From: Phycisphaerae bacterium
GTDB lineage: Bacteria; Planctomycetota; Phycisphaerae; UBA1845; PWPN01
Reading direction: 5' to 3'
Length of the DNA: 64,000 nt
Assembly (NCBI GenBank): GCA_012719955.1
Contig: JAAXZI010000223.1
Span: 500-64,499 of the forward strand
Under the pieces are notes generated by a model, which did no database searches, had not been told where the DNA came from, and was given only the letters and a program-made list of their open reading frames with translations. A program made the translations under genes and the position numbers. Every line of letters starts with the position of its first letter. Position 1 is the first letter of the stretch. Positions 25,203 through 28,480 of this stretch are shown here, piece by piece.

Positions 25203-25248
25203 TTGACATGCAGGATGGGCGGTATTACGATCCGTCCGTTCGTAATAC
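25203..25248 (+). promoter_or_regulatory. Sigma70-like promoter overlapped by a NikR-like palindrome
   Basis: TTGACA(25203)-17 bp-TACGAT(25226); GTATTAC-N13-GTAATAC at 25222-25248 covers the -10 and start region. Confidence 0.7.
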
Positions 25249-25460
25249 TTCCCGCGTGGTAATCGGGTGACGGCTGCGCTCAAGAGCAGGTACGAGAGAA
25301 TCAGTCGGTAGCCGGGTGGTAGGGGGCGCAGGCCAGATCAGCATCCCCAGGGCGCATTCCAGTGATCCTGCCGTCGGCTCCGAGCCTCACCCGCTTGCGG
25401 GCCGGAGCCAGCTTGATGTGTCTGAGCCGATGAATCAGCGGGTCTTGCGGAGGTCATTGC

Positions 25461-25991
25461 GTGGAGTTCTATCATTCTCAAGCGGCTGATCCGGACTGGC
25501 TCAGGCGGGCCAGCGAGTTTCATGGGCATCTGGGGCCTTGGCTGGTGATCGGTTCGCTGCTGGGCCAGGATGCCGTCACCCGGCTTCAAACGCCGGGGCA
25601 GTGGAAGATTGACGTCACCTGCTGGATGCCGCCTGATAAGCAGCGGACGCCCTTCTCCTGTATCCTCGACGGTTTGCAGGTCTCTTCGGGAGCCACGTTG
25701 GGTAAGCAGAACATTCGTTTTGATTACCTGCCGGCCATCCTGGAGAAGGGCTGGCCGGTGGTGCAGGTTATTCGGCTGGCTGAGGCCGAGCGTCCCGCGG
25801 CGGGTTGCGAGTATCGCCTCAGCAGCCGGCTGTACGAACTGCTCGAGCGCGTGGTCCCCGAACGCCTGGAAGAACACTCGCGGCAACTGGCCCGTGAACG
25901 GGCTGACGCGTTGTTCATCGTCCGGTCGATGACCGGGGAGGAGATTGCCGAGACTCTCCAGCGCGGGCGCGGCTCGCAGGCGAAGACGTGA
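25461..25991 (+). CDS. FmdE (formylmethanofuran dehydrogenase subunit E)-family protein
   Basis: FHGHLGP and SCILDGLQVSSGATLGK motifs; GGAGG SD before GTG. Confidence 0.82.
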   Translation: MEFYHSQAADPDWLRRASEFHGHLGPWLVIGSLLGQDAVTRLQTPGQWKIDVTCWMPPDKQRTPFSCILDGLQVSSGATLGKQNIRFDYLPAILEKGWPVVQVIRLAEAERPAAGCEYRLSSRLYELLERVVPERLEEHSRQLARERADALFIVRSMTGEEIAETLQRGRGSQAKT

Positions 25992-26869
25992 TGAGGCAGG
26001 TGTATTCTCATTCCTGGTGGCATCTGCTTGCCTGGCTATGTGTGCCGCTGACTTGGATCGTGGCCACGGCAGGTTGCCAGCGATCGCAGACGGCTGCACA
26101 GGGGCAGGCGCAGTCCGGGGCCGTCGCCCGGGTGGCCGCCAGCAACTCCTACCTGGAAGCGATGGTTCTCGATTTGCTCGGGCCCGATACCGGCATTGTG
26201 CGCCTGGCTGAACCCGGTACCTGCCCAGGGCATTTTGACATCCGGCCCAGCCAGATGACCGCGCTGCGGAATTGCCGGGTGTTGCTGCGCTTCGATTTCC
26301 AAAGATCCCTGGATGCCAAGCTCTCCGGCGTGGCGAGTGAAGGGCTGACCATCGTGGAGGTGAAGGTGCCCGGTGGCATGTGCGAGCCGGACAGCTACCT
26401 GGCCGCGGGCGAACAGGTGAAGGATGGGCTGGTGTCGGCGGGCCTGATCGACCAGGCGTCCGCGGACCAGCGAATGCAGTCTATCCGGGCACGTCTCGCG
26501 GAGACGGCCGCGCGGTGCCAAAGGCAGGTGAAAGAGGCCGGGCTGGCGGAGAAAGCGGTGCTTACCAGCAACCATCAGGCAGCGTTCTGTCGCTGGCTCG
26601 GGCTGCAGGTGGCGGCCACTTTCAGCGGGGCCGACGTGGCTTCCGTCGAGCAGGTTCAGACGGCGATCCGAGGGGGCGAACAGGCCGGGGTGATCGGGGT
26701 GGTAGCCAACCTGCCGGAGGGCCGGCGCGTGGCCGATGCTCTGGCCAAACGGCTGAACGCCAAGGTGGTGGTTTTCGGCAACTTTCCGCAGATACAAGGC
26801 GATGGGCCGGCTTTCGATGCCCTTATCCTCGGCAACGTCGCGGAACTTGTGAAAGTCCTCCAGCCATGA
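25988..26869 (+). CDS. Metal ABC transporter substrate-binding lipoprotein (ZnuA/TroA fold, atypical ligands)
   Basis: TAGC lipobox; GTCPGHFDIRP in place of GxDPHxYEP; overlaps FmdE stop. Confidence 0.8.
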   Translation: MMRQVYSHSWWHLLAWLCVPLTWIVATAGCQRSQTAAQGQAQSGAVARVAASNSYLEAMVLDLLGPDTGIVRLAEPGTCPGHFDIRPSQMTALRNCRVLLRFDFQRSLDAKLSGVASEGLTIVEVKVPGGMCEPDSYLAAGEQVKDGLVSAGLIDQASADQRMQSIRARLAETAARCQRQVKEAGLAEKAVLTSNHQAAFCRWLGLQVAATFSGADVASVEQVQTAIRGGEQAGVIGVVANLPEGRRVADALAKRLNAKVVVFGNFPQIQGDGPAFDALILGNVAELVKVLQP

Positions 26870-27669
26870 GCGAGGAAATCATCAGTATCAGCGACCTCTG
26901 TGTCCGGGCGGGCCGCCGAAAGGTTCTCGCGCTTCAGAATCTCTCTATCCAGCGGGGTGAGTTTGTCGGTATCCTCGGGCCCAACGGGGCGGGTAAGAGC
27001 ACCCTGTTGAAGGCCTGCCTGGGATTGCAGCGGGGCGTCTCCGGTCACATCTCGGTCTTCGGCCATGCGCTGGCGGACTTAGGTTTCCGAGAACTGGCCT
27101 TGCTGCGGCGCCGGATCGGTTATATCCCCCAATTGCTGCCCGGCCGGATGGAAATGCCCCTCACCGTCCGCGAAGTAGTCGCGATGGGCCGCACTGCCCA
27201 TGCGGGCCTGCTGCGTTCCCTGACGCGCCAGGATCACCGGTTGGTGGACGAGTGGATCGAGCGGCTGGGGTTGAGTGACCTGGCCGGGCAGACCTACGGG
27301 GCGATATCCGGCGGCGAACAACGCAGGACCCTGATCGCCAGGGCAATGGTGCAGGAGCCGGAGCTGCTTCTGCTGGATGAACCCACAGCCAATCTCGACC
27401 TGGGCGGGCGCGAGCGGCTGGTGTCAATCGTGGAGGAACTGTATCGGCAGAACAGCCTGACTGTACTGCTGGTGTGCCATGAGTTGGAGGTGTTGCCCGC
27501 CTGCTGTGGCCGACTCATTTTGCTGGGGGACGGACAATTGACGGCCGATGGCAGTCCCGACCAGGTCTTGTCCGAGCGGCGGGTCGAATCACTCTATGGG
27601 CCGAGCTTGACCGTGTTGTGTCGGCAGGGCCGCTACGCCATTGTCCCCGCGGTGCTGTCTCATGCTTGA
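26866..27669 (+). CDS. Metal ABC transporter ATP-binding protein
   Basis: ATG overlaps SBP stop; GPNGAGKST, ISGGE, LLLLDEPT, H-loop VCHE. Confidence 0.93.
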   Translation: MSEEIISISDLCVRAGRRKVLALQNLSIQRGEFVGILGPNGAGKSTLLKACLGLQRGVSGHISVFGHALADLGFRELALLRRRIGYIPQLLPGRMEMPLTVREVVAMGRTAHAGLLRSLTRQDHRLVDEWIERLGLSDLAGQTYGAISGGEQRRTLIARAMVQEPELLLLDEPTANLDLGGRERLVSIVEELYRQNSLTVLLVCHELEVLPACCGRLILLGDGQLTADGSPDQVLSERRVESLYGPSLTVLCRQGRYAIVPAVLSHA

Positions 27670-28480
27670 CCTGACCTTCTGGATGCCGGTGATGGCGGGC
27701 GGGCTGGTGGCCGGGGGCTCCAGCGGGTTGCTCAGCGTCTACATTGTCGGGATGCGCATCCCGTTCCTGGGTGTTTGCGTGGCCCATGCCGCTCTGGCCG
27801 GGGCTGTTTTCGGGTCCCTGGCGGGCCTGACCGGGCCAGCCCTGCTGGGAGCCGCTCTGGTGGCGGCGATGATTGCATCTTTGGCCCTGGGTTTGGCCGA
27901 TCCCCAACGACTGAATGCGGACACCAACGCGCTCATGGGCCTGCTCTTCTCTGCCACGATGGGGCTGGCCTTCATCGGGATGGGCCTGTTCCCGATGCTG
28001 GGACGCAGCGACAACGACGTTCGCAGCCTCCTGTGGGGCAGTCTCAACTTCTGCCGGTGGGAGGATGTTGGGCTCATGCTCGCGGCCTTCGCTGCCTTGG
28101 CGGCTTTCGTCGGGCTGTTCGGTAAGGAGATGCGGGCGATCATGTTTTCCCGGCAGGATGCAACGGCAGCGGGGATCCATGCCACGTTCGTGTGGACCGG
28201 GTTCCTGGTTCTGACGGCGGTAGTCATGGCCGTCAACTTCCAGACGGTCGGCGGCTTGATGATCTACAGCCTCATCAGCAACCCCGCCCTCGCGGCTTTC
28301 CAACTGGTCCGGGGCAGCGGGAAGGCCCTGATCCTCGCGTCCATCCTGGGCGCGACCAGTGGCCTGGGCGGCTTTCTGATTTCAGCGGCCACGGACCTGC
28401 CCAGCGGGGCGGTCATTGTTCTGCTCTCGTCCGTCTTGGCCGTGGCAGCTATGGCCGTGGGGCGTCTGCGGCGGCTTTGA
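27662..28480 (+). CDS. Metal ABC transporter permease (ZnuB-like)
   Basis: VAHAALAG, LLWGSL, QTVGGLMIYSL, DLPSGAVIVL. Confidence 0.9.
   Translation: MLDLTFWMPVMAGGLVAGGSSGLLSVYIVGMRIPFLGVCVAHAALAGAVFGSLAGLTGPALLGAALVAAMIASLALGLADPQRLNADTNALMGLLFSATMGLAFIGMGLFPMLGRSDNDVRSLLWGSLNFCRWEDVGLMLAAFAALAAFVGLFGKEMRAIMFSRQDATAAGIHATFVWTGFLVLTAVVMAVNFQTVGGLMIYSLISNPALAAFQLVRGSGKALILASILGATSGLGGFLISAATDLPSGAVIVLLSSVLAVAAMAVGRLRRL

What the first reader, a model, noticed from the sequence alone, without database searches (positions are those of the whole stretch)
25203..28480. FmdE + Cys/His-ligand ABC transporter under a NikR-like operator: candidate nickel uptake/chaperone module
Seen: TTGACA-17-TACGAT promoter overlapped by GTATTAC-N13-GTAATAC; an operon of FmdE, SBP, ATPase and permease with overlapping start/stop codons. 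The ZnuA-fold SBP has CPGH and GGMCEP in place of the usual DPH...DPH His motifs. Known: NikR operators are long dyads with GT(A/G)T(T/G)A-type half-sites separated by about 15-16 bp, and FmdE proteins bind metal through His/Cys. Inference: a Ni (or Co)-repressed importer with an unusual thiol-containing binding site and an FmdE metallochaperone, despite ZnuABC-like annotation.
Basis: partly seen in the sequence, partly recalled or inferred. Interest (0 to 1): 0.62.

Follow-up and report, generated by a model that had tools for sequence, protein, structure and literature searches.

The report
NikR-controlled ZnuA-type nickel importer
This operon, annotated as a zinc importer in an anaerobic planctomycete, most likely imports nickel under the nickel sensor NikR, and it belongs to an undescribed importer class that is common in Planctomycetota and Verrucomicrobiota.

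Summary
A strong sigma-70 promoter (TTGACA-17-TACGAT, 25203-25231) is overlapped by a perfect dyad, GTATTAC-N13-GTAATAC (25222-25248). Behind it lie four translationally coupled genes: FmdE, a lipoprotein binding protein, an ATPase and an ABC-3 permease.

The dyad matches the published delta-proteobacterial NikR consensus. Only two such sites exist in the 5.3-Mb genome. The genome encodes a NikR with all four nickel ligands.

The dyad recurs at the same promoter position in orthologous operons. nikR lies within 6 kb of the binding-protein gene in 27 of 80 related loci. A canonical ZnuA with a His-rich loop, and a different palindrome upstream, lies elsewhere in the genome.

The binding protein has the ZnuA/PsaA fold. 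It has Cys-Pro-Gly-His and a Cys loop where two canonical His ligands sit, and it forms its own family of about 400 clusters.

FmdE is an accessory, present in 9 of 80 loci. The usual partners are a secreted protein of unknown family and a GspG-like pseudopilin. In this genome these two sit on another contig behind the second dyad.

Nickel specificity is inferred, not shown.

The parts
25203..25231 (+). Sigma-70-type promoter: TTGACA (25203-25208), 17-nt spacer, TACGAT (25226-25231)
   Evidence: The same -35-to-dyad spacing (TTGAC + 14 nt + GTAT) is seen in orthologous promoters.
25222..25248 (.). NikR-type operator GTATTAC-N13-GTAATAC. It covers the -10 hexamer and the expected transcription start. 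The extended inverted repeat spans 25217-25253.
   Evidence: It matches the published consensus GTGTTAC-[N13/14]-GTAACAC (PMC545781). It is conserved upstream of orthologous operons.
25249..25460 (+). 5' leader of about 212 nt, no recognised regulatory RNA
   Evidence: No Rfam match even at E<=10. Folding z-score is +0.58 against shuffles.
25461..25991 (+). FmdE-domain protein, 176 aa, no signal peptide (cytoplasmic). It keeps His21, His23 and Cys67 of the known FmdE metal site.
   Evidence: Pfam PF02663, 49.9 bits. Ortholog alignment A2. Profile alignment to 2GLZ and 2GVI. The site is defined in PMC2954224.
25988..26869 (+). Lipoprotein substrate-binding protein with a cluster A-I (ZnuA/PsaA) fold and a remodelled site: Cys78-Pro-Gly-His81, Cys131, His195, Glu243, and Asn264-Phe-Pro (numbering from the ATG at 25991)
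   Evidence: Pfam ZnuA, 44.2 bits. AF2 model pLDDT 89.2. Foldseek TM 0.61-0.70 to ZnuA, PsaA, FpvC and YfeA at 11-18% identity. Conservation. Ligand mapping.
26866..27669 (+). ABC ATPase, 267 aa
   Evidence: Pfam ABC_tran, 110.6 bits. No NCBIfam equivalog cut-off is reached.
27662..28480 (+). ABC-3 family permease, 272 aa
   Evidence: Pfam ABC-3, 125.9 bits. Best NCBIfam match is AztB at 83.9 bits, below its cut-off of 280.

Best explanation
This is a nickel-repressed, high-affinity Ni(II) ABC importer of an undescribed class.

Proposed mechanism:
- When cytoplasmic nickel is sufficient, Ni-NikR (encoded elsewhere in the genome) binds the 27-bp dyad. The dyad covers the -10 hexamer and the transcription start, so binding blocks RNA polymerase.
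- When nickel is scarce, the operon is transcribed.
- A lipid-anchored binding protein with the ZnuA/PsaA fold captures the metal in the periplasm. Two of its canonical His ligand positions carry Cys-Pro-Gly-His and a Cys loop.
- It delivers the metal to an ABC-3 permease powered by the ATPase.
- The cytoplasmic FmdE protein, which has a His2Cys site, probably takes over or buffers the incoming nickel. The genome's three [NiFe] hydrogenases need nickel.

Shown here: the sequence features, the NikR gene, operator conservation, nikR linkage, and the fold. Inferred: NikR binding, repression, nickel as the substrate, and the role of FmdE.
For: - The operator matches the published NikR consensus GTGTTAC-[N13/14]-GTAACAC. 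The second genomic site, GTATTAC-N13-GTAACAC, is identical to a published D. desulfuricans hydAB site.
- Only 2 such sites exist in the genome, against 0 for the control pattern.
- The second site heads a secreted-protein plus pseudopilin gene pair. In relatives this pair sits directly upstream of FmdE and the binding protein, in one operon behind one dyad.
- NikR has RHH and NikR_C domains and the QHHHH..HVH..C ligand pattern.
- In 80 loci from Planctomycetota and Verrucomicrobiota, nikR lies within 6 kb in 27. A dyad with at most 2 mismatches lies within 400 nt upstream of the first operon gene in 38 of 75 evaluable loci. About 0.1 would be expected from the genome-wide rate.
- Among 61 relatives, 18 of 19 genomes with the binding protein have nikR, against 26 of 42 without it (Fisher p=0.012).
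- Two canonical ZnuA-family paralogues lie elsewhere (239 and 216 bits, against 40 bits for this one). One has the His-rich loop and a different upstream palindrome.
- The binding-protein family conserves CPGH[F/Y]D (119 of 140 representatives), His195, NxxEG and NFP (133 of 140).
- Three [NiFe] hydrogenase large subunits show a nickel demand.
- An FmdE crystal structure held mixed Zn/Ni at the His-x-His-x-Cys...Cys site, and most FmdE genes neighbour metal transporter genes (PMC2954224).
Against: - No experiment exists. Metal specificity rests only on the regulator.
- The genome also has a CbiM/NikM homologue and a NicO-like fragment, so this need not be the only nickel route.
- The half-site carries A where the published consensus has G at position 3.
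- The published consensus is itself a computational prediction.
- The same-genus genomes G001 and G002 lack the binding protein.
- Hydrogenases are nearly universal in the order (55 of 61 genomes), so they do not discriminate between genomes with and without the operon.
- One operon-bearing genome (G031) shows no nikR.
- No model coordinates were available, so the ligand geometry comes from alignment only.
Confidence: 0.75

Rival explanations
1. It is an ordinary zinc or manganese/iron importer, as annotated, repressed by Zur or another non-NikR regulator that happens to recognise an AT-rich palindrome.
For: - The Pfam ZnuA and ABC-3 hits are above cut-off, and public records name it a zinc ABC transporter.
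- The extended half-site contains TCGTAAT/ATTACGA, which also occurs in the predicted Geobacter Zur box TAAATCGTAATnATTACGATTTA.
- Authors of the Methanothermobacter genome paper suggested that a nikR next to znuABC might sense zinc (PMC3087415).
Against: - The genome already has a canonical ZnuA with a His-rich loop and DPH/PH/FHD motifs. That gene has a different palindrome, GTCATACAACGTATGAC. There is also a TroA-like system.
- This binding protein scores only 40 bits to PF01297 and has Cys where canonical His ligands sit.
- Half-site orientation and spacing fit NikR (27 bp, N13), not the 1-nt-spaced Zur box.
- nikR is adjacent in 27 of 80 loci.
- The NikR here keeps all four Ni(II) ligands.
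Confidence: 0.07
2. NikR controls the operon, but the substrate is another metal: cobalt or another thiophilic ion. Alternatively the substrate is a nickel chelate rather than the free ion.
For: - Cys-rich sites also favour Co(II), Cd(II) or Cu(I).
- The conserved secreted protein and pseudopilin partners hint at a more complex substrate or capture step.
- Several known nickel binding proteins bind chelated nickel (general knowledge).
Against: - All characterised NikR proteins respond to Ni(II), and the ligand set is intact here.
- No cobalamin riboswitch is present, and no B12 gene was seen in the loci inspected.
- Cluster A-I proteins bind bare ions in a small interdomain site, and the model keeps that compact fold.
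Confidence: 0.12
3. The dyad is not a functional operator here. It is a leftover copied along when the ancestral operon was split, and the FmdE-ABC genes are expressed constitutively or from another start.
For: - An unusually long leader of 212 nt separates the dyad from FmdE.
- In most relatives FmdE has no promoter of its own.
Against: - The dyad is perfect, with 9-bp arms.
- It is paired with the only strong promoter in the region, at the same -35 spacing as in relatives.
- An independent lineage (G004, locus L014/L033) also has FmdE as first gene behind its own TTGACA-17-TACGCT promoter and dyad.
Confidence: 0.05

Closest known systems
E. coli NikR / nikABCDE and the predicted delta-proteobacterial NikR regulons (nikMNQO, hydAB; Rodionov et al. 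2004, PMC545781)
   Same: - A Ni-NikR repressor.
- A 27-28-bp inverted-repeat operator with GT(G/A)TTAC half-sites at N13, placed over the promoter of a nickel uptake operon.
- NikR has the RHH plus NikR_C architecture and the His3Cys site.
   Different: - The regulated transporter is neither NikABCDE (family-5 binding protein) nor the ECF-type NikMNQO. It is an ABC-3 permease with a cluster A-I binding protein.
- The half-site has A where the consensus has G at position 3.
- nikR is unlinked in this genome.
ZnuABC, TroABCD, PsaABC and AztABCD (cluster A-I binding protein with ABC-3 metal importers)
   Same: - The same fold (TM 0.61-0.70).
- The same permease family and the same three-part transporter.
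- A lipoprotein anchor.
- The third ligand, His195, aligns exactly with the canonical His.
   Different: - Only 11-18% identity.
- No NCBIfam equivalog is reached.
- The first ligand motif DPH becomes Cys-Pro-Gly-His, and the second His loop becomes Gly-Gly-Met-Cys-Glu-Pro.
- No His-rich loop.
- A NikR operator instead of a Zur, MntR or TroR operator.
- Extra conserved NFP and NxxEG motifs.
FmdE family, PF02663 (structures 2GLZ, 2GVI, 3D00; Axelrod et al. 2010, PMC2954224)
   Same: - The alpha+beta core domain.
- The FHGH motif and the xC(I/A)LDxxQ motif, which form the metal site.
- A gene neighbourhood with a metal transporter, as noted for most family members.
   Different: - The third ligand Cys (HxHxC) is Gly here, giving an invariant HGHLGPW.
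- No zinc-finger domain.
- No link to formylmethanofuran dehydrogenase.
NiuBDE (Helicobacter) and other NikR-regulated nickel ABC importers
   Same: A NikR-regulated binding-protein-dependent nickel ABC importer that feeds hydrogenase or urease.
   Different: NiuB/CeuE is a cluster A-II (siderophore/B12-type) binding protein with a FecCD permease and binds chelated nickel. The protein here has the small-ion cluster A-I architecture.

Membership tests
NikR regulon (NikR-operated promoter) | The genome encodes NikR with an RHH DNA-binding domain, a NikR_C domain and the high-affinity Ni site (His76', His87, His89, Cys95 in E. coli numbering) | tested here: met
   C43:12291-12707(-), 138 aa. PF08753 97-98 bits, RHH_1 36.5 bits. 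The sequence QHHHH-x7-HVH-x5-C has E. coli spacing.
NikR regulon (NikR-operated promoter) | A 27-28-bp inverted repeat with NikR-type half-sites separated by 13-14 nt, overlapping the promoter | tested here: met
   GTATTAC-N13-GTAATAC at 25222-25248 overlaps the -10 hexamer. It differs from the published GTGTTAC-[N13/14]-GTAACAC by one symmetric G>A change.
NikR regulon (NikR-operated promoter) | The operator is conserved in orthologous promoters, and nikR is linked to the target operon in some genomes | tested here: met
   A dyad lies upstream of the first operon gene in 38 of 75 loci. nikR lies within 6 kb in 27 of 80 loci.
NikR regulon (NikR-operated promoter) | Ni(II)-dependent binding of NikR to the site, and nickel-dependent repression | not testable with these tools
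   This needs EMSA or footprinting and expression data.
Cluster A-I metal binding proteins (Pfam ZnuA, PF01297) | Sequence match above the Pfam cut-off, and a two-lobe alpha/beta fold joined by a long rigid helix | tested here: met
   44.2 bits against a cut-off of 29. The AF2 model has a long helix at 155-182. Foldseek probability is 1.00 to ZnuA, PsaA, MtsA and FpvC.
Cluster A-I metal binding proteins (Pfam ZnuA, PF01297) | The canonical ligand set: His (DPH), His (PH), His or Glu, Asp or Glu | tested here: not met
   The first position reads Cys78-Pro-Gly-His81 and the second loop reads Gly-Gly-Met-Cys131-Glu-Pro. Only His195 and probably Glu243 correspond to canonical ligands.
ZnuA proper (zinc-specific) | A His/Asp/Glu-rich flexible loop, and control by Zur | tested here: not met
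   There is no such loop. The paralogue at C204:13301-14470 has it (HAHAHDHSDAHDHSEGHDHAEGH) and a different palindrome upstream.
ABC-3 permease family (PF00950) | Pfam match over the full length | tested here: met
   125.9 bits, profile positions 4-257 of 258.
FmdE family (PF02663) | Pfam match, and the His-x-His-x-Cys ... Cys metal site of the core domain | tested here: inconclusive
   The Pfam match is met at 49.9 bits. His21, His23 and Cys67 align with His15, His17 and Cys55 of 2GLZ, but Cys19 is Gly25 in all orthologues (site from PMC2954224).
Known nickel importers: NikABCDE, NikMNQO/ECF, NiCoT | A family-5 binding protein (SBP_bac_5), or a CbiM/NikM membrane component, or a NicO-type permease within the operon | tested here: not met
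   None of the four products hits these families. The genome's CbiM and NicO homologues lie on other contigs.

The most novel reading that the evidence does not exclude
Across the PVC bacteria the NikR-controlled unit is larger than an ABC importer. It almost always begins with a secreted, dockerin-tailed protein of unknown family, whose model shows tandem OB-like barrels, and a GspG-like pseudopilin.

The boldest reading is that these two proteins form an envelope-spanning nickel capture or hand-over device that feeds the Cys/His binding protein. That would give a first function to one member of the hugely expanded planctomycetal pseudopilin-like gene families. It would also describe a new way of getting a trace metal across a Gram-negative-type envelope.
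Probability: 0.2. Interest if true: 0.82.

Novelty: new variant of a known kind. Interest (0 to 1): 0.64.

Why it matters
- **A known gap.** A 2009 census found no known nickel or cobalt transporter in any sequenced planctomycete, although one had a [NiFe] hydrogenase (PMC2667541). This operon is a concrete candidate for the missing route. It is widespread: about 400 clusters at 50% identity, and 374 loci in a one-genome-per-species collection.
- **Annotation.** All public names call it a zinc transporter. Metal budgets inferred from metagenomes of anoxic sediments and digesters would therefore be wrong for this gene.
- **Chemistry.** A ZnuA-fold protein with thiolate ligands would show how a zinc/manganese scaffold is retuned for nickel.
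- **FmdE.** The case adds a regulon-based, testable handle on the FmdE domain, whose function has been open since its structures were solved in 2010.

Tried and rejected
- **Riboswitch in the leader.** I first suspected a cobalamin or other riboswitch in the 212-nt leader. Rfam gave nothing at gathering score or at E<=10, and the fold is no better than shuffles. Rejected.
- **More NikR sites.** I looked for sites near hydrogenase, hyp or nikR genes. With up to 2 mismatches, or with N14 spacing, only G+C-rich sequences that look like coding DNA turned up. No autoregulation site was seen.
- **CbiM/NikM homologue on C241.** It has one TCGTAATAC half-site about 50 nt upstream, but no dyad and no riboswitch. 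Its metal is undecided.
- **Hydrogenase co-occurrence.** It was uninformative, because 55 of 61 relatives have [NiFe] hydrogenase.
- **PDB sequence search with FmdE alone.** It found nothing relevant. A profile was needed.
- **Ligand distances.** The structure model's coordinates are not exposed, so they could not be measured.
- **Fold search of the secreted partner protein.** It gave only weak tandem-OB matches (TM about 0.2) and no function.
- **Rodionov 2006 nickel/cobalt paper.** It is not held in the library.
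Full report
**1. What is in the sequence**

TTGACA lies at 25203-25208, a 17-nt spacer follows, and TACGAT lies at 25226-25231. This is the only sigma-70-like site between 24900 and 28700, with 10 of 12 consensus matches.

The inverted repeat GTATTAC-N13-GTAATAC lies across the -10 hexamer at 25222-25248. It is better than described. The arms are perfect for 9 bp (GTATTACGA-N9-TCGTAATAC) and 86% complementary over 14 nt.

A 212-nt leader follows. It has no Rfam match even at E<=10, and its predicted fold is no more stable than shuffled sequence.

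Four genes then run with overlapping stops and starts:
- FmdE, 25461-25991 (Pfam FmdE, 49.9 bits)
- a binding protein, 25988/25991-26869 (Pfam ZnuA, 44.2 bits)
- an ATPase, 26866-27669
- an ABC-3 permease, 27662-28480

The binding protein has a lipobox Cys. FmdE has no signal peptide.

**2. Is the dyad more than chance?**

The window lies in a 5.29-Mb genome with 63.5% G+C. The pattern GTRTTAC-N12-15-GTAAYAC occurs at two places only, and the reversed control pattern occurs at none. With one mismatch allowed at N13 the same two sites are the only hits. Other spacings give none, apart from three N14 hits in G+C-rich sequence that looks coding.

The second site is GTATTAC-N13-GTAACAC on contig C169. 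It heads two genes. One encodes a 387-aa secreted protein with no Pfam or NCBIfam family. The other encodes a protein with a prepilin-type N-terminus whose best match is the type II secretion pseudopilin GspG.

**3. The regulator**

The published, computationally derived NikR signal of delta-proteobacteria is GTGTTAC-[N13/14]-GTAACAC. One listed site, upstream of D. desulfuricans hydAB, reads GTaTTAC-[N13]-GTAACAC, which is identical in its half-sites to the C169 site (PMC545781).

The genome encodes one NikR at C43:12291-12707. It has RHH and NikR_C domains (97-98 bits) and the sequence QHHHH-x7-HVH-x5-C. My comparison with E. coli NikR from memory places its four Ni(II) ligands (His76, His87, His89, Cys95) at the same spacing.

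**4. Comparative genomics**

Among 61 related genomes, 19 have an orthologue of the binding protein. In the window's family the genes form one operon: dyad, secreted protein (sometimes duplicated), pseudopilin, FmdE, binding protein, ATPase, permease.

The window's genome has therefore split this operon into two transcription units, and each carries its own dyad. This is the strongest internal evidence that the dyad marks a regulon.

The dyad sits at a fixed distance from a TTGAC -35 element in these promoters, with 14 nt between TTGAC and the dyad. Its left arm therefore supplies the -10 hexamer. That is a repressor geometry.

More distant orthologues without FmdE carry the identical GTATTAC-N13-GTAATAC directly before the binding-protein gene (L018, L019).

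A scan of one genome per species returned 374 relatives. The best 80 come from Phycisphaerae, Planctomycetia, Verrucomicrobiota and a few others. Within 6 kb of the binding-protein gene:
- nikR occurs in 27 of 80 loci, either divergent upstream or at the operon's end
- the secreted protein occurs in 57
- the pseudopilin occurs in 59
- FmdE occurs in only 9

A dyad with at most two mismatches lies in the 400 nt before the first operon gene in 38 of 75 evaluable loci. From the genome-wide rate about 0.1 would be expected.

nikR is present in 18 of the 19 operon-bearing relatives, against 26 of 42 others (Fisher p=0.012).

**5. Not the zinc system**

The genome has two strong ZnuA-family paralogues, at 239 and 216 bits. 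The window's protein scores 40 bits in the same search.

The paralogue on C204 has the textbook motifs (CPHDY, NPHVW, FHDAF) and a long His-rich loop. It is preceded by a different palindrome, GTCATACAACGTATGAC. The paralogue on C181 is TroA-like.

**6. The binding protein**

An AlphaFold2 model (pLDDT 89.2) has the cluster A-I fold. Foldseek gives TM 0.61-0.70 to ZnuA, PsaA, MtsA, FpvC and YfeA at 11-18% identity. Sequence profiles reach solved structures only weakly, and no NCBIfam equivalog is reached.

Profile alignment to the genome's own TroA-like protein and to MntC gives this ligand map:
- Cys78-Pro-Gly-His81 lies on the canonical Asp-Pro-His.
- The Gly-Gly-Met-Cys131-Glu-Pro loop lies on the second His loop.
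- His195 lies exactly on the third His.
- Glu243 lies one or two residues from the fourth Asp/Glu.

In 35 orthologues Cys78, His81 and Glu243 are invariant, and Cys131 and His195 are nearly so.

An exhaustive profile search found 402 clusters at E<=1e-30. Among 140 full-length representatives, 119 keep C-P-G-H-[F/Y]-D and 133 keep N-F-P. The ligand geometry itself could not be measured, because model coordinates are not exposed.

**7. FmdE**

The family's metal site is His-x-His-x-Cys plus a distal Cys. In one crystal it held a Zn/Ni mixture. Most family members neighbour metal transporter genes (PMC2954224).

Here His21, His23 and Cys67 are kept, and the third ligand is an invariant Gly. FmdE is an accessory of this clade. 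A cytoplasmic nickel acceptor or buffer role is plausible but untested.

**8. Nickel demand and alternatives**

Three [NiFe] hydrogenase large subunits carry both the RxCGxC and the DPCxxCxxH motifs. The genome also has a CbiM/NikM homologue, with one half-site, no dyad and no riboswitch, and a NicO-like fragment. This system need not be the only nickel route. Hydrogenases are almost universal in the order and do not discriminate.

**9. Comparison with what is known**

Functionally the locus works like NikR/nikABCDE or NikR/nikMNQO. Structurally the transporter is a ZnuABC/TroABCD relative that fails the canonical ligand test.

Full-text searches found no paper describing a NikR-controlled cluster A-I nickel importer. 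The nearest mention is a nikR next to znuABC in Methanothermobacter, which its authors read as possibly zinc-related (PMC3087415).

Earlier AI notes of this scan report the same class (nikR plus a ZnuA-type system plus FmdE, with a Cys-Pro-x-His-(Y/F)-Asp and Asn-Phe-Pro signature) in archaea and other anaerobes. I treat them as leads. The signature is reproduced here.

**10. Verdict**

I put 0.75 on a NikR-repressed nickel importer. It is a new variant of a known kind.

The partner pair, a secreted protein with tandem OB-like barrels plus a pseudopilin, is the most unexpected element and remains unexplained.

Noticed in passing
own genome, contig C169:4469-6444 (locus L002): The second NikR-type site of the genome has three half-sites: GTATTACGA-TT-TCGTAATAC followed by GTAACAC. 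It heads a 387-aa secreted protein with no known family and a GspG-like pseudopilin. The secreted protein's AF2 model (pLDDT 75) shows tandem OB-like barrels and a dockerin-like Asp-rich tail. In relatives this pair is the first part of the same operon as the window's genes.
   Followed up: partly
own genome, contig C204:13301-15144: A canonical ZnuA with a His-rich loop is preceded by the palindrome GTCATACAACGTATGAC. Upstream lies a 160-aa protein with a ribbon-helix-helix-like N-terminus and a Cys/His-rich C-terminus (…CPFCRG…CTCCHYEY…ICPHCDEHEHGH). This is a candidate zinc-responsive regulator of an unusual type.
   Followed up: no
own genome, contig C181:17389-20607: A TroA-like operon whose ABC-3 permease is 449 aa long. 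It carries a C-terminal extension that may be a fused regulator domain.
   Followed up: no
own genome, contig C241:22631-23747: A CbiM/NikM homologue (192 bits) starting MHMADT. It has a single TCGTAATAC half-site about 50 nt upstream, a TTGACG -35 element, no riboswitch, and short direct repeats (CAACTCGAAGACGTGG-like) further upstream. The contig ends soon after, so the rest of the transporter is unseen.
   Followed up: partly
window 26866-27669: The operon's ATPase scores highest against heme, corrinoid and F420-0 type ABC ATPase models (180-185 bits). It scores lower against manganese or zinc types (MntA 162, AztA 159). This is unusual for an ABC-3 system.
   Followed up: no
L040 (G060:C12:42200-49300), positions 414-815, 2155 and 4634: nikR lies divergent from the orthologous operon, with two perfect dyads. 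One is before the secreted-protein gene. The other is about 2.5 kb upstream, before other genes. Verrucomicrobial loci often carry the hybrid form GTCATAC-N13-GTAATAC.
   Followed up: partly
window 25376-25409: A 7-bp G+C-rich stem (GGCTCCG...CGGAGCC) lies inside the long leader. It has a 20-nt loop and no T-run. Its role is unknown.
   Followed up: no
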